Positions 5,387 through 17,694 of a stretch of DNA of 64,000 nucleotides are shown one piece after another. Positions within the stretch are counted from its first letter, which is position 1, and every line of letters starts with the position of its first letter. The notes beneath the pieces are model-generated. The model was not told the origin of the DNA, did no database searches, and saw only the letters and a list, made by a program, of their open reading frames with translations. The stretch is taken from positions 48,992 to 112,991 of the forward strand of contig PMIP01000084.1 of assembly GCA_003158295.1 (NCBI GenBank). Reading direction: 5' to 3'. Origin of the DNA: Chloroflexota bacterium (GTDB lineage Bacteria > Chloroflexota > Limnocylindria > Limnocylindrales > CSP1-4). The position numbers and the translations under genes are program-made.

Positions 5387-5527
5387 GGCATCAGGCTAGC
5401 AGCGACGCGTGGACGACGCCTCGAAGGAACGGTTCCGCATCGCCGGCCGCGACGACCGCGTCGCAATCGGGCGTGCCGGCCTGTGGCGCGCGGCGGTGTT
5501 AGGATCGTGGCAATCGAATACGCCTCC

Positions 5528-5612
5528 GGGGAGCGCCCAGGGCGCTGAGAGTGCGGCTTCAGCCGCAGACCCGCCGTACCTGATCTGGACAATACCAGCG
5601 AAGGAAGCAGGC
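5528..5612 (+). promoter_or_regulatory. TPP (THI-box) riboswitch in the thiD leader
   Basis: GGGGAGCGCCCAGGGCGCUGAGAGUGCGGCUUCAGCCGCAGACCCGCCGUACCUGAUCUGGACAAUACCAGCGAAGGAAG contains the conserved CUGAGA, ACCC and ACCUGAUCUGGAUAAUACCAGCGAAGGGA-type elements, about 65 nt upstream of the thiD start. Confidence 0.85.
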
Positions 5613-5674
5613 TCCGACCACTCCTCGCCGCACTCCCCGCGGAGCGCGGCGAAGTCTGTCTTGAGAGGTCGAAG

Positions 5675-11182: not shown

Positions 11183-11740
11183 GTGACAGACCTCTCGCAC
11201 CCAGCAATCCAGCGTGTTATCGAGGCAGCCTCTCGGAAGGGTGTTGCGCTCGACATCACGATCTTCAGCGACTCGACGCGAACCGCCGAGGAGGCCGCCG
11301 CGACCGTCGGCGCCGAGCTCGGCCAGATCGTCAAGTCGCTGGTTTTCGTGGCGCCGCGCCTCGACGGACGGCTGGTGCCGATCGTCTGCCTGGTTTCCGG
11401 CCGGAATCTGGTCGACATCAGCCTGCTGGCAGCGGTCACCGGCGAGTCGGCGATCCGGCGGGCCACGGCGGTCGAGGTGCGGGAACTGACCGGGTTCTCC
11501 ATCGGCGGAATCCCGCCCTTCGGCCACGGTCGCAACGTCCAGACGGTGATGGATCAGGATTTGGGCGTCTACGAGTGGGTGTGGGCCGCGGCCGGCACGG
11601 ATACGGCCGTCTTCCGCGTCTCTCCGGGAACTCTCCGGATGCTTGCCAACGCTTTCGTGGCCCCGATCGCTGAGACCTCCTGGATGCACTCGCCCCGGGC
11701 CGCCGCAGCCGAGCAGCGACTTCAGTTCGAGACCGGCTAG
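11183..11740 (+). CDS. ybaK: YbaK/ProX-family aminoacyl-tRNA deacylase (Cys-tRNA(Pro) editing domain)
   Basis: 185 aa. KSLVF...GGIPPFGH signature of the YbaK/ProX editing-domain family. Confidence 0.75.
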   Translation: MTDLSHPAIQRVIEAASRKGVALDITIFSDSTRTAEEAAATVGAELGQIVKSLVFVAPRLDGRLVPIVCLVSGRNLVDISLLAAVTGESAIRRATAVEVRELTGFSIGGIPPFGHGRNVQTVMDQDLGVYEWVWAAAGTDTAVFRVSPGTLRMLANAFVAPIAETSWMHSPRAAAAEQRLQFETG

Positions 11741-12216
11741 TACGCCCTGATCCCGCCCGGACCCTGCCCGCCCAGTCGGGCCGCGTTCAGCCTTGAGACG
11801 ACGCCCTTCCGGCGTACGTCCGAGTCGATCGAGTTCGTTCGCGACTGTGGATTAACGGTGGGTAACTCTCGTGGGGGACCGCCAAACTCGGTGGAAAACC
11901 CCATTGCCCGGGCGATCAGCTTCGCCTAGCGTGAATAGCACGCCTGAAGGTGTCGAGCGACTGCTAGCGGCTGAGATGACATCAAGGCTCACGCAGCCGG
12001 GTAGGTTCCTTCGGGCGTCTTTGTTTGCTCGCCGATCCCTACGCGACCGCCCCGCCGGCGCAGCGCCGCCCCCGTTGATCAGATGTCGAGGCGGCGTCCG
12101 GATGACTCCGGGCACCGCCTCGGCATTTTGCGAGGTCCGGGGTGGAGGATGGGGACCCGGCTCTCGCTGGTATTCGGATTCGGGCCGCGGTTCCGAGCGG
12201 AACCGGTGGGCGCTTG

Positions 12217-12501
12217 TCAGGTCTGCAGCCGTTCGACCGTGCCCCACTCCGTGTTCGAGTACAGGTTTCGCAGGAAGAGGAGCCGATTGATCTGCTCGAG
12301 CGACCATCGAGAGTCGCATTCCGGCAGACCGACGACGTAGCCGATCAACATGGCGGCGTCCGCACCATCGAACCCGCCGGCGAGCAGCAAGCGGTAGGCC
12401 TCCTGCGTCTGGACCCAGCGCGGCAGGAGATCCGGTGGAAGCGGAGCCGCCGTCGGGGCCTCTGTGTCGTGCTGATCGGCGAGCTGGGCGGCTTCGCCCA
12501 T
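12217..12501 (-). CDS. hypothetical small protein (about 95 aa)
   Basis: Only the C-terminal roughly 95 codons of a long antisense ORF look protein-like (AYRLLLAGGFDGADAAMLIGYVVGLPECDSRWSLEQINRLLFLRNLY). ATG at 12501. Divergent from the membrane-protein/WYL/HD cluster. Confidence 0.35.
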   Translation of the reverse strand: MGEAAQLADQHDTEAPTAAPLPPDLLPRWVQTQEAYRLLLAGGFDGADAAMLIGYVVGLPECDSRWSLEQINRLLFLRNLYSNTEWGTVERLQT

Positions 12502-12801
12502 AGGAACCGGGAACGACAGGTACGACGACCGTCGCGAGGCCGGGCCAGGACGGCTTGCAAGCGGCCGCCGGGCCAGCGGCCCGGTCCTGCCTGTGCTGCG
12601 TCGATCCGCCTGTCGAGGCATCTTCGGAACCTCCGTGTTCACTCGCCCTTGTACCGGAACAGTCGGTTCCGCCGACCGTTGGGACGAGAGCCGTGGGTCC
12701 CAGCACGGCGGGTACTTGCGGTCCAGTGGTCGTGCGTTCGGACTAGGTGCCGGCTGTGCTTCCAGGCGAGTCGAGTGTCTGTGGTTCGCTAGACTGCCAA
12801 C

Positions 12802-13989
12802 GTGCGCGTCCGCCAGTTCGAGCTCAGGCTTCTCGCCGTCGCCCTCACCATCCTCTGGGCCGCGGGCGCCGGTGTGATCCTCGTTGCCTACCGGCCAGGC
12901 GGCCCCGTCGACTTGCTGGTAGGCGTCGCGGCGTCTCTGCCGCTGCTGGTCAGCGTCGCCTCGATCGTGTGGCCGCCGCTTGTGCGCAGCGATCGAGGAT
13001 CGGCGGGGGTCTTCTGGCTTGGCCTGGTCGCGGGGTTGTTGCTGCTGCCCTCGATCGCGGGGGTCACCGGCCAGGTTGTCGAGGGCGGCACTCAGGCTCT
13101 TCTGCCCTCCCTGGAGGTCGTCTACCCCTGGGCTCTGGCCCTGCTGGCTACGAGTCTCTTCGCCGGGATCGGAATCAGCCGCCAGTTCATCAATGAAGTC
13201 GGCATCGGCAAGCGTCGCATAGCCGCCTCTCTGGCCTTCGCCGTCGTGGCAACCTCGGTCATAGGCGGCGTCTACGCCGGCGTGAGTCTGGCCGACGAGG
13301 CCGCTCTTCGCGACCGGCCCGCGACCCATTCCAGGTTCGGACCCACGGAGGCCAACGTCATACCTCCCGAATGTAACCAGGCTCTGGTGAGTGCGACCAC
13401 GGCAAAGCTGGAGCTCGACCTCTGGGCCGACGTCGACGGGCGGTCGGTGGGGACCGTGAATCTCAACGGGAGCCGATCCGGCATGGACGTCTCCTGGACA
13501 GCGCAGGTGGTCCGCGGTGCCGACCTCTTCGTCCAGTACGCCGCAGTGCGTCGGGGATCGGCGGCCTGGCTTCTCGGACCGGGCGGCGCCTGGACGCCGG
13601 TGCCTCCCGCCGAGCTGGACGGCGACATGGTGGATGCCTCGGCCATCGCCGGAGCACTCTCGCTCGGCAACCGAGCCACGGCCGAGAACCGCGGGTTCGA
13701 GTACGTCGAGGGTGCGCGAGCTCGTCACTGCCGGATCGCCGTGGACGGCACCACGTTCCAGACGTCGTTCCCCCAGGTCGTCTGGCTGGTCGGAAACGCG
13801 GACACGTCGACGTGGCGGGGCGAGCTGGACTACTGGGTCTTCGGCGACGGAGAGGTCGGCCGGATCGAGGGTCGGATCAACGGAAGCGCGCAGGAGATCC
13901 TGCCTCACGGCCTCCTGGCGACAGTCAACCTTCGGATGACCGCGACGGACCGGGACACGCCGGTCTCGATTGCGACGCCGCGCACGTGA
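12802..13989 (+). CDS. hypothetical integral membrane protein (5 predicted TM helices plus about 230-aa extracytoplasmic domain)
   Basis: 395 aa. N-terminal hydrophobic helices, then a soluble domain. No recognisable family. Immediately upstream of and overlapping the WYL regulator. Confidence 0.6.
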   Translation: MRVRQFELRLLAVALTILWAAGAGVILVAYRPGGPVDLLVGVAASLPLLVSVASIVWPPLVRSDRGSAGVFWLGLVAGLLLLPSIAGVTGQVVEGGTQALLPSLEVVYPWALALLATSLFAGIGISRQFINEVGIGKRRIAASLAFAVVATSVIGGVYAGVSLADEAALRDRPATHSRFGPTEANVIPPECNQALVSATTAKLELDLWADVDGRSVGTVNLNGSRSGMDVSWTAQVVRGADLFVQYAAVRRGSAAWLLGPGGAWTPVPPAELDGDMVDASAIAGALSLGNRATAENRGFEYVEGARARHCRIAVDGTTFQTSFPQVVWLVGNADTSTWRGELDYWVFGDGEVGRIEGRINGSAQEILPHGLLATVNLRMTATDRDTPVSIATPRT

Positions 13990-15052
13990 TCGGTCGAGAA
14001 TGAGGCCGCCGACAGGACCGATGGGAGGCGGATCTGCGCCGGGCCGGTCCCTGGGCGATGCCGATGGCGCCCTCTCGTCCGATAGAGCGGTCAAGCGCGA
14101 TCGGCTGGCCCGCTTCTACCGGGCCCTTCGCTACCTGGCCGCCCATCCGGAGGGTGCCCCGGTGGACGCCGTCGCCGGCTTCGTGGGCATGTCGCGTCGA
14201 ACCGTCTACCGCGATCTGCAGGCCCTGGAGGGCGAGATCGGGATTCCACTGTGGAGCGAAGGCGGCCGGTGGGGGATCGTGGAAGGCGCCTTCCTGCCCC
14301 CGCTGCGACTGACCCTCGACGAGGCCGTTGCCTTCTTCTTTGCGGCGCGGCTGACGGCCCAATTCGCCGACCGATACGACCCGGACACGGGCGCGGCCTT
14401 CCAGAAGCTGGCGGAGATCCTGCCGCCGGCCGTGGCCCGACACCTGGAGCGGACGATCGACGTGCTGGCCAGCCGGCCGCCGGACGAGAGGCTGACACGG
14501 CACTTGCGGCTGCTCGCTCGAGCTTGGGCGGAGCGGCGAGTGGTGGAGCTGACCTACAACGCGGCGGCTCACAGTCCGGGGCGGCCGCCGAGGCGAGCGC
14601 GAGTGCATCCGTATCTGCTCGAGGCTTCCGCGACGACGCGGGCGCTGTACCTGATGGGCTTCGATGAATCGCGTGGCGCGATCAGGACCTTCAAACTGCA
14701 GCGAATCCTTGACCTGTCTCTCGCGCCGGAGACGTTCGAACCGCCCCACTCCGGAGTCGTGCAGGAGGGGCTCGACCGCGCCTGGGGGGTCATCGCAGAC
14801 CAGGAGGAGGTGGAGGTGGTGCTGCGCTTCGATGCGGCGATCGCCGGCCAGGTGACGGAGACGACCTGGCACCCTACCGAGCGCGTCGTTCCCGAGCCGG
14901 AAGGGAGCGTCGTCTGGAGGGCTCGTGTCCCGGGCACGATCGAGATCCGGCGGTGGATCCTTTCCTGGGGCTCCGAGGTAGAGGTCCTCGAGCCGCCCGA
15001 GCTTCGCGACGAGGTTGCCGCGACACATCGCGCGGCCGCGGCGCGGTACTGA
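13970..15052 (+). CDS. WYL-domain transcriptional regulator (HTH, WYL, WCX-like C-terminal extension)
   Basis: HTH GMSRRTVYRDLQALE near the N-terminus. Central WYL-like region RALYLMGFDESRGAIRTFKLQRI. Length about 330-360 aa as in PafC/BrxR/DriD-type regulators. Alternative starts at 14000 or 14021. Confidence 0.75.
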   Translation: MRRRARDRSRMRPPTGPMGGGSAPGRSLGDADGALSSDRAVKRDRLARFYRALRYLAAHPEGAPVDAVAGFVGMSRRTVYRDLQALEGEIGIPLWSEGGRWGIVEGAFLPPLRLTLDEAVAFFFAARLTAQFADRYDPDTGAAFQKLAEILPPAVARHLERTIDVLASRPPDERLTRHLRLLARAWAERRVVELTYNAAAHSPGRPPRRARVHPYLLEASATTRALYLMGFDESRGAIRTFKLQRILDLSLAPETFEPPHSGVVQEGLDRAWGVIADQEEVEVVLRFDAAIAGQVTETTWHPTERVVPEPEGSVVWRARVPGTIEIRRWILSWGSEVEVLEPPELRDEVAATHRAAAARY

Positions 15053-15075
15053 CCTTCTGCGTCTAGGCTTGCGGC

Positions 15076-16593
15076 ATGCAGGATGAGACCCCAGGCTCGC
15101 TCGACGAGAGGGATGTCGTGCCCGGCGCGCCCGGCACCGGTCCGGCCGCGGCGGCGCACCCGCTCCTGTGGGCCGTCAACCTGATCAGCGATCCGATCCA
15201 CGGCTACATCGAGCTGACGAAGCGCCTCACCTCCGATCGCGCCCGCCAGCTTGGCTTGGCGGGGGAGGAAGCGGCCGAGGGCGACCTGCTGGACTCGGCG
15301 TGGCTTCAACGGATGCGGCGCATCAGCCAGCTCCAGAGCGCCCGCTGGGTCTTCCCCACGGCCGAGCACAGCCGCTTCACTCACAGCCTGGGCGTCATGC
15401 ACGAGGCGGGCCTCTGGGCGCGCCAGCTCTATCCGAGCCTGCGGGCGGAACTGAGCGCGGTCGAGCCGGCCGTCGATCCGCCCTCCGAAGGCCTGGTCGT
15501 GGAGACCATGCGCCTGGCCGGGCTCCTGCACGACGTGGGTCACGGGCCGTTTGCCCATTTCTTCGACGACCACGTGCTGTGCCACTTCCCGGCGCCACCC
15601 GACCCGCGCCGCCGGCACAAGAGCCTGACCCACGAGGACCTCTCGCAGCTGATCATCGAGCGCGAGCTGGGCGACCAGATCCGATCCATCCGGCGGGCTC
15701 CGGGGGCGGTCCCGGAGCGCGACGCCCTCCGGCGTGACGAGTCGATCGATCCGCGCTGGCTCTCGTTCCTGATCTCCAAGCCTGCCCTGGCCGACCCGTC
15801 GATGCCGCGCTGGCTGCGCTGGCTCCAGCCCCTGCTCTCGGGCGTCTTCACCGTGGACAACCTGGACTACGTCCGGCGCGACTCGTACCTGATCGGCGTC
15901 TCCGCGGGGCCGGTGGACGTGGAGCGGCTACGGCGATACAGCTTCGTGGGGCCACATGGGCTCTCGCTGTACGAGCCCGGGTTGGGGGCGCTGGAGATGT
16001 TCCTCACCGCCCGGCTGTTCCTTTATCAGCAGATCTACTTCCACCGATCGGTCCGGGCGATCGATTTGGACCTCGAGGAGGTCTTCCGTCCGAGCATCCT
16101 GGCGATCTTCGGCGAGGGTTCGCCGGCCGATCAGCTGGATCACTACGCCGACCTGGACGAGTACGCCCTCCTGCACCAGGCGGCTTTGTGGGCCCGGGGC
16201 GAGAAACTCTCCGAGCGACCCGCGGCCGGCGACGGGACGGTGACGCCGGAAGTCGGGCGAGTCTGGCAGGCCATCCTGCTGCGCCGGCCACGATGGCATG
16301 CCGAGGCCGAGCTACGGCGCGCGTACGAAGCCAGCGAGCGAGATGCGGAGATGCGGGCGGCCCGGAGCGAGCTCGGACGCGACGAGCCCGGGATGGTCGC
16401 CATCGACCTGGCCGAGGTGGACGCCAGGCCGGCCGAGGCAACGGCCACCGACTCCCTGCTCGCGGTTGTCGGACGAGACGGCCACCCGGCTGCGCCCCTC
16501 AGTCAAGCCCTGGGCCGGATCCCGGCCTACTCGCTCGTGGCCAGACGGTATCGGCGCGGGCAATCCGTCGCGGACAAGGTCTCGGAAGGCTAG
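15076..16593 (+). CDS. HD-domain dNTP triphosphohydrolase, SAMHD1/COG1078-like
   Basis: 505 aa. HD signature HSRFTHSLGV...LHDVGHGPFAH. Downstream VDNLDYVRRDSYLIGV and FLTARLFLYQQIYFHRSVRAIDLDLEEVF align with SAMHD1 DVDKWDYFARDCHHLGI and FHTRNSLHRRAYQHK. Confidence 0.75.
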   Translation: MQDETPGSLDERDVVPGAPGTGPAAAAHPLLWAVNLISDPIHGYIELTKRLTSDRARQLGLAGEEAAEGDLLDSAWLQRMRRISQLQSARWVFPTAEHSRFTHSLGVMHEAGLWARQLYPSLRAELSAVEPAVDPPSEGLVVETMRLAGLLHDVGHGPFAHFFDDHVLCHFPAPPDPRRRHKSLTHEDLSQLIIERELGDQIRSIRRAPGAVPERDALRRDESIDPRWLSFLISKPALADPSMPRWLRWLQPLLSGVFTVDNLDYVRRDSYLIGVSAGPVDVERLRRYSFVGPHGLSLYEPGLGALEMFLTARLFLYQQIYFHRSVRAIDLDLEEVFRPSILAIFGEGSPADQLDHYADLDEYALLHQAALWARGEKLSERPAAGDGTVTPEVGRVWQAILLRRPRWHAEAELRRAYEASERDAEMRAARSELGRDEPGMVAIDLAEVDARPAEATATDSLLAVVGRDGHPAAPLSQALGRIPAYSLVARRYRRGQSVADKVSEG

Positions 16594-17694
16594 TCACGCC
16601 CCGGACGCGGGCGGCGCCGGCACGGGCGTCGGCGTGGGCACGGGTGTCTCCGTCGGCGTGGGCACGGGTGTCTCCGTCGGCGTGGGCGCTTGTGTCTCCG
16701 TCGGCACGGGCGTGGGAGTGGCCGTGACCTCGCCAGTCGGCGTGGCGGTGCCGCTGGCCGCCGGCGCCTTCGACGGCGTGGGCTTGGAAGGCGGTCGCTT
16801 GGTCGGCGGCGGACAACTCGAAGCCTCGTATGGTCGCAGCGCGACCATCTCTTCCACGTTGCAGCGGAACGGCAGGACCAGCAGCGGGTTGACCCGGGCT
16901 ATCTCCGCCGCGGGCATTCGGTCTCGCTCAACGACTCCTGGGTCCAGGGCGAAGATCTTGGTCTCCAGCGGGCTGTAGAGGCTGTAGTGAACGTGGCATC
17001 CGGTGGCCAGTCCGGTCATGCCTTCGTAGCCGATGCGGTCGCCGGCATTGACGTGCTGGCCGGGCTGGACGGTCACCGACGACTCGTGGGCGTAGATGCT
17101 GCGGTATCCGTTGCCGTCGTCGATGACGACCACGATAGGGACGGTGTTCCAGAACTTGTGTTGAGTGAGCCAGTCGTAGTAGCGGGTCAGGCTGCCTTCC
17201 CAGCCCACAAAGTCGTCGTACTGGCGCCCGGCCGCAAGGACGACGCCGTCATGGGCCGCGAGAACCGCGGGGCCGCAGCCGGTGGATATGTCCAGGCCGT
17301 CGTGGAACCGTTGACCGTCGACGATCATCTCGCCCCACGAGGTGGGCCCGAAGGGAAGCGTGACGTTGGCGTTGACGAGCGGCCAGACGTAGCCCGTGAG
17401 ATCCTGCGGCGGGATGGGGACCGGGGCCGTTATGAGTTCCTGGGCAGTCGGCGACTCAGTCACCGAGGCGGATGGGGAAGGGTCGGCCGCCGACGGGGAT
17501 GGCGACGGCGACGTCGCGACCGCGAGCAGTGACCGGGAGGCGCCGGACGAAACCGGCACGCCGGAGTTCGCGGCAACCCCGGGCTCCGTAAGCAGGGAGG
17601 CGGCTTCGACGGCGACCAGGCCGACGGCGAGTACCGCAGCCAAGGCACGGCGCCGACCGGGCAGCCGGCCGCGCAAAGGCCACGCGATCTGCAT
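16594..17694 (-). CDS. secreted M23-family (LytM) metalloendopeptidase with C-terminal Pro/Thr-rich repeat tail
   Basis: Signal-like N-terminus from internal start MQIAWPL at 17694. M23 motifs HDGLDI and GCHVHYSLY. C-terminal TPTETPVPTP repeats. Confidence 0.75.
   Translation of the reverse strand: MQIAWPLRGRLPGRRRALAAVLAVGLVAVEAASLLTEPGVAANSGVPVSSGASRSLLAVATSPSPSPSAADPSPSASVTESPTAQELITAPVPIPPQDLTGYVWPLVNANVTLPFGPTSWGEMIVDGQRFHDGLDISTGCGPAVLAAHDGVVLAAGRQYDDFVGWEGSLTRYYDWLTQHKFWNTVPIVVVIDDGNGYRSIYAHESSVTVQPGQHVNAGDRIGYEGMTGLATGCHVHYSLYSPLETKIFALDPGVVERDRMPAAEIARVNPLLVLPFRCNVEEMVALRPYEASSCPPPTKRPPSKPTPSKAPAASGTATPTGEVTATPTPVPTETQAPTPTETPVPTPTETPVPTPTPVPAPPASGA
16606..16720. repeat. approx 27-bp tandem repeats (gtcggcgtgggcacgggtgtctcc) encoding the PT-rich tail
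   Basis: Three to four near-identical units visible in the sequence. Confidence 0.7.

What the first reader, a model, noticed from the sequence alone, without database searches (positions are those of the whole stretch)
12217..16593. WYL-domain regulator paired with a SAMHD1-like dNTP triphosphohydrolase and a membrane protein
Three co-directional, tightly spaced genes: a five-TM protein with a large extracytoplasmic domain, an HTH-WYL regulator, and an HD-domain protein carrying the SAMHD1 catalytic signature (HxxxxHD, DYxxRD). A small ORF diverges from the cluster. WYL regulators sense ssDNA or nucleotide ligands. They control DNA-damage regulons (PafBC, DriD) and derepress defence systems (BrxR, CapW). 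dNTP-depleting enzymes are established anti-phage effectors. A WYL-gated dNTPase would couple a damage or infection signal to nucleotide-pool depletion. I am not aware of a characterised WYL-regulated, SAMHD1-like dNTPase. The membrane partner is unexplained.
Basis: partly seen in the sequence, partly recalled or inferred. Interest (0 to 1): 0.65.

Follow-up and report, generated by a model that had tools for sequence, protein, structure and literature searches.

The report
WYL regulator beside housekeeping-type dNTPase
A DNA-damage-type WYL regulator lies next to a SAMHD1-like dNTP-degrading enzyme in a five-gene block conserved across one class of soil Chloroflexota, but it looks like core chromosomal housekeeping, not an anti-phage system, and the regulatory link is unproven.

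Summary
The window carries a 5-TM membrane protein (12802-13989), an HTH-WYL-WCX regulator (14021-15052) and a SAMHD1/EF1143-family HD protein (15076-16593). They run in the same direction, with gaps of 31 and 23 nt. A divergent small gene is really 134 aa, not 94 aa.

The organism is a Candidatus Limnocylindria bacterium (Chloroflexota).

WYL-HD linkage is conserved across this class: 8/8 genomes and 54/59 metagenome loci. The block small134-memb-WYL-HD-M23 survives where all other flanking genes have changed. In one clade the WYL stop overlaps the HD start.

The defence reading is not supported:
- The locus is core and vertically inherited, with housekeeping flanks.
- The HD protein is the slowest-evolving gene of the block.
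- The PADLOC defence-dGTPase model is matched only weakly.
- 72 HD relatives from other phyla have no WYL neighbour. Several sit next to NrdD or thymidylate kinase.
- In the window's clade HD has its own conserved -10 box, placed for a leaderless transcript.
- Unrelated genes are inserted between WYL and HD in about a third of relatives.
- No shared operator was found.

The membrane partner carries an LprG/LolA-like extracytoplasmic domain.

Verdict: new members of known families in a lineage-specific conserved block. Control of the dNTPase by the WYL protein is plausible but untested. Interest is modest.

The parts
12217..12621 (-). Divergent gene 'small134'. It encodes a 134-aa lineage-specific protein of unknown function, with a conserved N-terminal MAGxADRSSxGQTGPxARRP motif, a variable linker and a conserved three-helix C-terminal region.
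   Evidence: ORF and in-frame extension. GGAGG lies at 12630-12634, 8 nt before the ATG. The N-terminus is conserved in 28 orthologues. No Pfam or PDB match. Gene callers in public data record it as 94 aa in most entries and as 134 aa in one. The single-sequence AF2 model is unreliable (pLDDT 52.8).
12622..12801 (.). Divergent control region. It holds conserved DNA blocks (for example GGTACTTGCGG at 12711-12721), which probably form the leader or promoter of small134. It also holds the -10-like hexamer TAGACT (12790-12795), 6 nt before the GTG of the membrane gene, which implies a leaderless transcript.
   Evidence: TAGACT is invariant or nearly so in 50 dereplicated loci. The GGTACTTGCGG block is kept even in the deep clade, at variable distance. 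Window-wide matches to it are not clearly above chance (5 found, 1.7 expected). No Rfam family matches. No convincing inverted repeat.
12802..13989 (+). Membrane protein (395 aa). Five TM helices anchor an extracytoplasmic domain with an LprG/LppX/LolA-like fold.
   Evidence: No Pfam, NCBIfam or PADLOC hit. Hydropathy. AF2 model pLDDT 81.6. Foldseek against PDB: LprG E 4e-7, TM 0.57-0.59 normalised to the target; then LprF, LppX, LolA and RseB. Found upstream of WYL in 60/62 informative loci.
14021..15052 (+). HTH-WYL-WCX transcription factor (343 aa; 350 aa if it starts at 14000). It is of the DriD/PafBC/SiwR type.
   Evidence: Pfam WYL and WCX. PDB: DriD 8tp8 5e-15, other WYL proteins about 1e-14, PafBC 6sj9 3e-8. 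The DriD DNA-reading Arg37/Arg41 correspond to R60/R64. The DriD ssDNA contacts Y168/Y192/R204/W206/R207 correspond to Y179/Y210/R222/F224/K225. All of these are invariant or conservatively substituted in 137 orthologues.
15064..15069 (+). -10-like hexamer TAGGCT inside the 23-nt WYL-HD gap, 6 nt before the HD start codon. It marks a probable HD-specific leaderless promoter.
   Evidence: TA[G/C]NCT lies exactly 6 nt before the ATG in most of 39 dereplicated loci of the window's clade; two outliers have TACAAT 7 nt before a GTG. This holds also where 0.5-2.1 kb of unrelated genes separate WYL and HD. The same arrangement precedes the HAD, YbaK and membrane genes. Little information content is seen upstream of -15.
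15076..16593 (+). HD-domain protein (505 aa) of the SAMHD1/EF1143/TT1383 (COG1078) dNTP triphosphohydrolase family.
   Evidence: Pfam HD. PDB hits 2hek, 2q14, EF1143 and SAMHD1. The catalytic signature is conserved. 211 clusters at 50% identity match at E<=1e-30 and 11552 at E<=1e-3. Close relatives are 75-96% identical across many metagenomes.
16594..17694 (-). Convergent M23 peptidase gene. It is the fifth member of the conserved block and has a Pro/Thr-rich tandem-repeat C-terminus.
   Evidence: Pfam Peptidase_M23 3e-20. Kept directly downstream of HD in most relatives, including the deep clade. A 24-nt tandem repeat lies at 16627-16716.

Best explanation
This is a vertically inherited, core chromosomal gene block specific to the class Candidatus Limnocylindria (Chloroflexota). 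Its order is small134 (<-), membrane LprG/LolA-like protein (->), HTH-WYL-WCX regulator (->), SAMHD1-like HD dNTP triphosphohydrolase (->), M23 peptidase (<-).

Shown:
- The domain identities.
- Conservation of the block beyond the surrounding synteny.
- Stop/start overlap of WYL and HD in one clade.
- A separate -10 box for HD in the window's clade.
- Absence of the WYL association in HD relatives from other phyla.

Inferred:
- The WYL protein is a homodimeric ssDNA-sensing transcription factor like DriD, SiwR or PafBC.
- It acts locally. It autoregulates the leaderless membrane-WYL transcript and/or controls the divergent small134 gene.
- Read-through from that transcript adds a damage-responsive component to HD expression. 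In the basal clade this happens through true operon membership.
- HD itself hydrolyses dNTPs to deoxynucleoside plus triphosphate and serves dNTP-pool homeostasis. In the window's clade it is expressed mainly from its own generic promoter.

The pair is best read as a housekeeping dNTPase loosely coupled to a DNA-damage-type regulator. It is not a gated anti-phage effector.
For: - Domains.
- Taxon: names given by sources; lineage.
- Linkage: 8/8 genomes; 54/59 loci have HD and 60/62 have the membrane gene.
- At about 70% HD identity only the five block genes persist. None of 14 flanking genes is found within +-10 kb in 9 of the 10 deep loci that carry HD. L009 is the exception: it keeps the HAD and YbaK genes but lacks the membrane and small134 genes.
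- TGATG or GTGA stop/start overlaps occur in L009, L010, L011 and L067.
- No terminator-like site lies between the three genes.
- The WYL gene starts about 10 nt after the membrane gene's stop in most relatives.
- Ligand-pocket and recognition-helix residues are invariant in 137 orthologues.
- Housekeeping character: flanks, strong conservation of HD, and NrdD, ATP-cone and thymidylate kinase next to HD relatives in other phyla.
- The HD-specific -10 box is kept across insertions.
- WYL regulators are known to control adjacent genes in response to ssDNA: SiwR (PMC10693628), DriD (PMC10853764), PafBC (PMC11804915).
Against: - No operator was identified. No motif is shared between the membrane/small134 control region and the HD promoter, and the HD promoter carries little information upstream of -15.
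- In about a third of relatives unrelated genes (CAP, DUF4232, TPR, unknowns) sit between WYL and HD. Tight co-regulation is therefore not required.
- One outgroup locus (L158) keeps membrane-WYL without HD within 6 kb.
- Leaderless transcription and the promoters are inferred from sequence conservation only.
- dNTPase activity and ssDNA binding are inferred from homology only.
- Conservation of the block could reflect a different shared function, for example an envelope function, with HD as a passenger.
Confidence: 0.5

Rival explanations
1. No functional link. WYL and HD are neighbours by descent only. The WYL protein regulates small134, the membrane gene or a distant regulon. HD is a constitutive housekeeping dNTPase that has simply never been separated from them.
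For: - HD has its own generic -10 box.
- The WYL-HD junction tolerates unrelated inserted genes in about 24 of 70 loci.
- HD relatives in 72 loci from other phyla never have a WYL neighbour.
- L158 keeps membrane-WYL without HD.
- No shared operator was found.
Against: - The block is retained where every other flanking gene has been lost from the neighbourhood.
- WYL and HD show stop/start overlap in the deep clade.
- There is no terminator between the genes.
- Neutral retention of five genes across order-level divergence is unlikely, but it was not quantified.
Confidence: 0.3
2. One reading: a WYL-gated dNTP-depletion defence. Phage infection or ssDNA derepresses or activates the dNTPase, which starves phage replication.
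For: - WYL repressors such as CapW sense ssDNA and control defence operons (PMC11662680).
- The HD protein keeps the full SAMHD1-type catalytic signature.
- Linkage is conserved in the class.
Against: - The locus is not in a defence island; its flanks are housekeeping genes.
- It is present throughout the lineage with slow evolution of HD. I take that as opposite to the patchy distribution of defence genes; this expectation rests on established knowledge of defence islands and was not tested here.
- The PADLOC dGTPase model is matched only at 18.9 bits, over the HD motif.
- No mobile-element or other defence genes were seen nearby.
- The HD promoter looks like the generic promoter of this genome.
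Confidence: 0.08
3. The block is an envelope or cell-division module under DNA-damage control. The WYL protein, like DriD controlling the division inhibitor DidA, regulates small134, the LprG/LolA-like membrane protein and perhaps the M23 peptidase. HD is a passenger or a secondary target.
For: - Three of the five conserved genes are envelope-related or unknown: the membrane protein has a LolA/LprG fold, M23 is a peptidase, and small134 has a long conserved leader.
- DriD-type regulators activate division inhibitors (PMC10853764; PMC13010146 for Acinetobacter).
- The strongest non-coding conservation lies in the small134/membrane divergent region.
Against: - There is no evidence that small134 or the membrane protein affects division.
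- small134 has no predicted TM segment and no known homologue.
- This model gives no reason for HD being the most constantly retained partner.
Confidence: 0.12

Closest known systems
DriD (Caulobacter crescentus) and SiwR (Mycobacterium smegmatis): homodimeric wHTH-WYL-WCX activators that bind ssDNA
   Same: - Same domain order and size. DriD is the best match among solved structures (8tp8, 5e-15, aligned over residues 23-339).
- The DNA-reading arginines and most ssDNA-contact residues are conserved.
- Encoded by a single gene, so presumably a homodimer.
- SiwR controls adjacent genes (PMC10693628), which is the arrangement proposed here.
   Different: - Sequence similarity is low; the E-values are modest.
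- DriD Y240 corresponds to Ile here, and R178/R189 vary in the deep clade.
- No DriD-like CGxC-N7-GxCG operator and no -26 element was identified.
- The neighbouring genes differ: a dNTPase and an LprG-like membrane protein here, against didA/recA or DinB-like genes there.
PafBC (Actinobacteria DNA-damage activator)
   Same: - HTH-WYL-WCX architecture.
- Detectable similarity: 6sj9 3e-8, PafC 7p5x 6e-7. JGI names many orthologues 'proteasome accessory factor B'.
- Leaderless, -10-dominated promoters, as in actinobacterial PafBC targets.
   Different: - One gene here, not a PafB/PafC pair or fusion.
- No proteasome or Pup genes nearby.
- No conserved RecA-NDp-like motif. A TGTCTGTG near the membrane gene's promoter in the window is not conserved even in the closest relative.
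SAMHD1 / EF1143 / TT1383 family dNTP triphosphohydrolases (COG1078)
   Same: - Homology across the catalytic core (query residues 70-349).
- All metal-binding and catalytic motifs are conserved.
   Different: - 26-50% or lower identity to any characterised member.
- N-terminal (1-30) and C-terminal (about 350-505) regions are specific to the subfamily.
- Allosteric sites and oligomeric state were not examined, and activity is untested.
- It has no SAM domain.
Anti-phage dNTP-depletion enzymes (defence dGTPase / dCTP deaminase; PADLOC 'dGTPase')
   Same: An HD-superfamily enzyme predicted to degrade dNTPs.
   Different: - Only a marginal local hit to the PADLOC model (E 2e-4, 18.9 bits, residues 98-161) and to the NCBIfam Dgt models (<=26.5 bits against cut-offs of 150-440).
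- Core, syntenic, housekeeping genomic context.
LprG / LppX / LolA-superfamily lipid-binding proteins
   Same: The C-terminal domain of the membrane protein has this half-barrel fold (Foldseek E 4e-7 to 1e-4).
   Different: - It is anchored by five TM helices, not by a lipobox lipid anchor.
- 9-16% sequence identity and no Pfam hit.
- The ligand is unknown.

Membership tests
HTH-WYL-WCX transcription factors | WYL domain | tested here: met
   Pfam PF13280, 48.4 bits against a cut-off of 21.8. The L-Y-L motif at 209-211 is invariant.
HTH-WYL-WCX transcription factors | C-terminal WCX domain | tested here: met
   Pfam PF25583, 72.8 bits against a cut-off of 23.9, covering residues 280-357 of the 360-aa ORF.
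HTH-WYL-WCX transcription factors | N-terminal winged HTH | tested here: inconclusive
   The Pfam HTH models score only 17-21 bits, below their cut-offs. However, the region aligns with the DriD wHTH, and the equivalents of R37/R41 (R60/R64) are invariant in 137 orthologues.
HTH-WYL-WCX transcription factors | ssDNA (or nucleotide) binding by the WYL domain | not testable with these tools
   Only residue conservation is available. 5 of 9 DriD contact positions are invariant or conservatively substituted, 1 is mostly conserved, 2 vary in the deep clade, and 1 is replaced by Ile.
PafBC | Two-subunit (PafB+PafC) or fused tandem architecture, encoded in the Pup-proteasome locus | tested here: not met
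   A single 343-aa gene. No second WYL gene in the 64-kb window. No proteasome genes among the neighbours.
SAMHD1/EF1143-type dNTP triphosphohydrolase (COG1078) | HD metal site H...HD...D plus the family motifs R-x-x-H-S-L-G, HDxGHxPxxH and DxxDYxxRD | tested here: met
   H103, H152-D153, H156, H161, D261/D264, R268 and D269 are aligned to SAMHD1, EF1143 and 2hek. They are invariant in 31 diverse relatives.
SAMHD1/EF1143-type dNTP triphosphohydrolase (COG1078) | Homology over the whole catalytic domain to members of proven activity | tested here: met
   SAMHD1 5e-18 over query residues 71-349; EF1143 3e-21.
SAMHD1/EF1143-type dNTP triphosphohydrolase (COG1078) | dNTP -> deoxynucleoside + triphosphate activity, nucleotide-activated oligomer | not testable with these tools
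   Needs an enzyme assay. The allosteric-site residues were not analysed.
Anti-phage dNTP-depletion system | Match to defence dGTPase models | tested here: not met
   PADLOC PDLC02374 scores 18.9 bits (E 2e-4), a local match only. NCBIfam Dgt models score far below their cut-offs.
Anti-phage dNTP-depletion system | Defence-island or mobile context with patchy distribution | tested here: not met
   The flanks are housekeeping genes. The block is present and syntenic in all sampled Limnocylindria loci.
Anti-phage dNTP-depletion system | Protection against phage | not testable with these tools
   Needs a phage-challenge experiment.
LolA/LprG/LppX fold (membrane protein C-terminal domain) | Half-barrel lipid-binding fold | tested here: met
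   AF2 model pLDDT 81.6. Foldseek to LprG gives E 4e-7 and TM 0.57-0.59 normalised to the target.
LolA/LprG/LppX fold (membrane protein C-terminal domain) | Lipoprotein signal peptide or lipobox anchor | tested here: not met
   The N-terminus is a five-helix TM bundle, not a lipobox signal peptide.

The most novel reading that the evidence does not exclude
In Limnocylindria a chromosomal ssDNA-sensing WYL regulator directly controls a SAMHD1-like dNTPase, together with an envelope protein. Replication stress, DNA damage or phage DNA would then trigger a programmed drop or rebalancing of dNTP pools. This would be a bacterial, transcriptionally gated analogue of SAMHD1-type pool control. No such WYL-dNTPase pairing turned up in the full-text searches.
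Probability: 0.15. Interest if true: 0.55.

Novelty: new member of a known kind. Interest (0 to 1): 0.3.

Why it matters
If the WYL protein does control the dNTPase, this would add dNTP-pool control to the outputs of the ssDNA-sensing WYL regulators. Known outputs so far are repair genes, division inhibitors, DinB-like enzymes and defence operons. It would also give an entry point into the DNA-damage response of an abundant, uncultivated soil and freshwater Chloroflexota class.

As the evidence stands, the locus is mainly useful as a well-defined, lineage-specific conserved block. It contains two proteins of unknown function (small134 and the LprG-like membrane protein), and a candidate small RNA lies next to it.

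Tried and rejected
1. A shared operator. I compared k-mers and alignments of the regions upstream of the membrane gene, WYL and HD in 50-79 loci and scanned for inverted repeats. Only the generic -10 boxes and a GGTACTTGCGG block near small134 are conserved. A RecA-NDp-like TGTCTGTG near the membrane gene's promoter is not conserved even in the closest relative. Partial 'TCTCGG' direct repeats upstream of HD occur only in a subset of loci.
2. Window-wide search for GGTACTTSCGG as a regulon motif: 5 matches against 1.7 expected, not convincing.
3. Rfam on 11500-17000 at E<=1: no match.
4. WYL neighbours of HD relatives in other phyla: tblastn, jackhmmer and Pfam on 254 neighbouring ORFs. None was found, though the Pfam summary lists only the 25 commonest families per set.
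5. Structure of small134.
6. Literature. No paper links a WYL domain with a dNTPase or triphosphohydrolase, or PafBC with a triphosphohydrolase, or a PafBC regulon with an HD-domain protein. The 'WYL'+'SAMHD1' hits listed were unrelated to the WYL domain.
7. PafBC membership was rejected (single gene, no proteasome locus). Defence-dGTPase membership was rejected (PADLOC and NCBIfam scores, genomic context).

Full report
OBSERVATION

The window has about 69% G+C. The ORF table and family scans confirm three co-directional genes:
- a 395-aa membrane protein at 12802-13989;
- an HTH-WYL-WCX protein at 14021-15052 (Pfam WYL 48.4 bits, WCX 72.8 bits);
- a 505-aa HD protein at 15076-16593.

The gaps are 31 nt (10 nt if the regulator starts at the ATG at 14000) and 23 nt. 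No terminator-like hairpin lies between the genes. Five hydrophobic segments, and an AF2 model with five TM helices followed by a soluble domain, confirm the topology claim.

The HD protein matches solved dNTPase-family structures: 2hek at 6e-26, EF1143 at 3e-21 and SAMHD1 at 5e-18 over residues 71-349. The alignments show the family signature: R-F-x-H103-S-L-G, H152-D153-V-G-H-G-P-F-A-H161, T-H186-E and D261-x-x-D264-Y-x-x-R-D269. 'DYxxRD' does.

The divergent small ORF is better read as 134 aa (12217-12621). The extension has a GGAGG box 8 nt upstream, and its N-terminal motif MAGxADRSSxGQTGPxARRP is conserved in relatives.

ORGANISM AND CONTEXT

Close homologues of all three proteins come from peat, soil and freshwater metagenomes. 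Where a source names them, the name is Candidatus Limnocylindrales (lineage). Contigs carrying an identical HD protein show the flanks: a thiamine operon (with a TPP riboswitch at 5517-5624), a transporter, a HAD hydrolase and a YbaK-like editing protein upstream. Downstream lie an M23 peptidase, cytochrome bd oxidase and lysine/DAP biosynthesis genes. None of the neighbours resembles a defence gene or a mobile element. The window holds no paralogues of the cluster genes.

IS THE WYL-HD LINKAGE CONSERVED?

From the HD side, I scanned one genome per species with a profile of diverse HD relatives (A1). The scan returned 80 loci. The eight Limnocylindria-like loci (HD 66-74% identical) all have the WYL gene upstream of HD. 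The other 72 loci (HD 26-50% identical) come from Nitrospirota, Desulfobacterota, Planctomycetota, Dormibacterota, Methylomirabilota, Thermoleophilia and archaea. None of them has a detectable WYL gene within +-10 kb by tblastn or jackhmmer. Pfam scans of 254 neighbouring ORFs list no WYL or WCX among the recurrent families. They list AIRS and DUF2062 (Nitrospira), thymidylate kinase, NrdD and ATP-cone instead.

From the WYL side, a metagenome scan gave 80 loci. HD is found downstream in 54 of the 59 loci with at least 600 bp of downstream sequence. The membrane gene is found upstream in 60 of 62.

In the deep-branching loci, 9 of the 10 that carry HD have none of the 14 other window genes within +-10 kb. 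L009 keeps the HAD and YbaK genes but lacks the membrane and small134 genes. Apart from such single losses, small134, the membrane gene, WYL, HD and M23 persist in these loci. The block is therefore conserved beyond background synteny.

In the deep loci without an insertion the WYL stop overlaps or abuts the HD start: TGATG in L009, L011 and L067, and GTGA in L010. That implies co-translation from one mRNA.

EVIDENCE AGAINST A TIGHT, GATED EFFECTOR

1. The WYL-to-HD distance is 48-300 bp in about 46 loci but 450-2130 bp in about 24 loci. The inserted genes are unrelated to each other and to nucleotide metabolism: a CAP-domain secreted protein, DUF4232, a TPR protein and unknowns.
2. In the window's clade a -10-like hexamer (TAGGCT, TAGTCT or TACGCT) sits exactly 6 nt before the HD ATG in most of 39 dereplicated loci. 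Two outliers have TACAAT 7 nt before a GTG. The hexamer is present whether or not genes are inserted upstream. The same geometry precedes the HAD, YbaK and membrane genes. It looks like the generic leaderless promoter of this genome. Positions upstream of -15 carry almost no information.
3. No inverted repeat or shared motif connects the HD promoter to the membrane/small134 control region.
4. HD is the slowest-evolving gene of the block, at about 70% identity against about 55% for WYL and about 45% for the membrane protein at the deepest split. It is present throughout the sampled lineage.
5. The PADLOC defence dGTPase model and the NCBIfam Dgt models are matched only marginally.
6. One outgroup locus (L158) keeps membrane-WYL but has PntB and other metabolic genes downstream, not HD.

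THE REGULATOR

Its best solved relatives are DriD (8tp8, 5e-15), several WYL-domain proteins and PafBC. Using the DriD-ssDNA-DNA paper (PMC10853764) I mapped functional residues onto this protein.
- The base-reading Arg37 and Arg41 correspond to R60 and R64. Both are invariant in 137 orthologues.
- The ssDNA contacts Y168, Y192, R204, W206 and R207 correspond to Y179, Y210, R222, F224 and K/R225. All are invariant or conservatively substituted.
- R176 is mostly conserved. R178 and R189 vary in the deep clade. Y240 is Ile here.

The protein is therefore very probably a functional nucleic-acid-sensing WYL transcription factor. Members of this class act on adjacent genes (SiwR, PMC10693628) or on DNA-damage regulons (DriD; PafBC, PMC11804915), or they repress defence operons (CapW, PMC11662680). 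It is not PafBC proper: there is one gene and no proteasome locus.

THE MEMBRANE PARTNER

It has no sequence family. An AF2 model (pLDDT 81.6) shows that residues about 195-385 adopt the LprG/LprF/LppX/LolA/RseB half-barrel fold. Foldseek gives E 4e-7 and TM 0.57-0.59 normalised to LprG. With two invariant cysteines this fits an extracytoplasmic lipid- or glycolipid-binding domain on a five-helix anchor. In most relatives the WYL start codon lies about 10 nt after its stop, so the membrane gene and WYL are probably one leaderless transcript. That transcript would start from the invariant TAGACT at 12790-12795.

MECHANISM PROPOSED

The WYL protein senses ssDNA and acts locally, on its own membrane-WYL transcript and/or on the divergent small134 gene. 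The long leader of small134 holds the best-conserved non-coding blocks. HD is a dNTP triphosphohydrolase for pool homeostasis. It receives read-through from the WYL transcript; in the basal clade it is a true operon member. In the window's clade it also has a promoter of its own. All steps beyond domain identity and gene order are inferred.

Confidence is about 0.5 for this package, 0.3 for 'no functional link', about 0.1 each for the defence model and for an envelope or division module with HD as a passenger.

NOVELTY

Full-text searches found no paper that couples a WYL regulator with a dNTPase. The components are new, divergent members of known families. The arrangement, a WYL regulator beside a candidate target, is a known kind. 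I rate it 'new member of a known kind', with interest 0.3. The most novel reading not excluded is a damage-gated dNTPase. It has a probability of about 0.15 and would deserve an interest of about 0.55.

SIDE OBSERVATION

Just upstream of the finding (about 11939-12027, + strand) lies a strongly conserved, structured element.
- It has its own promoter-like TTGCCC-17 nt-TAGCGT.
- It ends in a terminator-like U-rich tail.
- RNAalifold predicts 25 pairs, 6 of them with compensatory changes.
- It has no Rfam match.

It is a candidate novel small RNA.

Noticed in passing
window 11939-12027 (+); promoter-like boxes at 11904-11909 and 11927-11932: Candidate small RNA between the YbaK-like gene and small134. 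It is about 89 nt long and conserved at DNA level in about 40 Limnocylindria loci. It forms a long imperfect hairpin with an invariant apical GAUGACAUCAA and ends in a U-rich tail. RNAalifold gives -33.4 kcal/mol and 25 pairs, 6 of them with compensatory changes. No Rfam match at E<=1.
   Followed up: partly
window 12622-12760 (- strand leader of small134): The roughly 140-nt region upstream of the small134 start codon has several blocks conserved at DNA level, including in deep-branching relatives: GGTACTTGCGGTCCA, GTGCGTTCGGATTAG and CTGTAYCnGAACAGTCGG. It could be a structured 5' leader or a regulator-binding region. No Rfam match.
   Followed up: partly
L100, L119, L121, L125, L129, L105, L115, L126, L006-L008, L148-L154 (between WYL and HD): The WYL-HD junction is an insertion hotspot. 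Different lineages carry different unrelated genes there, from 0.5 to 2.1 kb: a CAP-domain secreted protein, DUF4232, a TPR protein, a weak GH12-like protein and unknowns. The HD -10 box is kept in all of them.
   Followed up: partly
window 10982 (-), 11183 (+), 12802 (+), 15076 (+): Four genes (HAD, YbaK-like, membrane, HD) have a TAGNNT-type -10 hexamer 6-8 nt upstream of the start codon and no Shine-Dalgarno box. This suggests that leaderless mRNAs are common in this genome. Internal operon genes (thiM, thiE, small134) have GGAGG-type boxes.
   Followed up: no
window 5517-5624 (+): A TPP riboswitch (RF00059, 64.9 bits) lies directly upstream of the thiD-thiM-thiE-thiL-transporter operon.
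   Followed up: no
window 16627-16716 (- strand coding, M23 peptidase C-terminus): A 24-nt tandem repeat (3.3-3.8 copies) encodes a Pro/Thr/Glu-rich repeat (TETPVPTP) at the C-terminal end of the M23 peptidase.
   Followed up: no
L012-L085 (HD relatives in other phyla): Relatives of this HD subfamily in other phyla recur next to nucleotide-metabolism genes: anaerobic ribonucleotide reductase NrdD in 5 loci, ATP-cone in 3 and thymidylate kinase in 2. In Nitrospira they sit next to an AIRS-family gene plus DUF2062 (9-10 loci). This fits a dNTP-pool role.
   Followed up: partly
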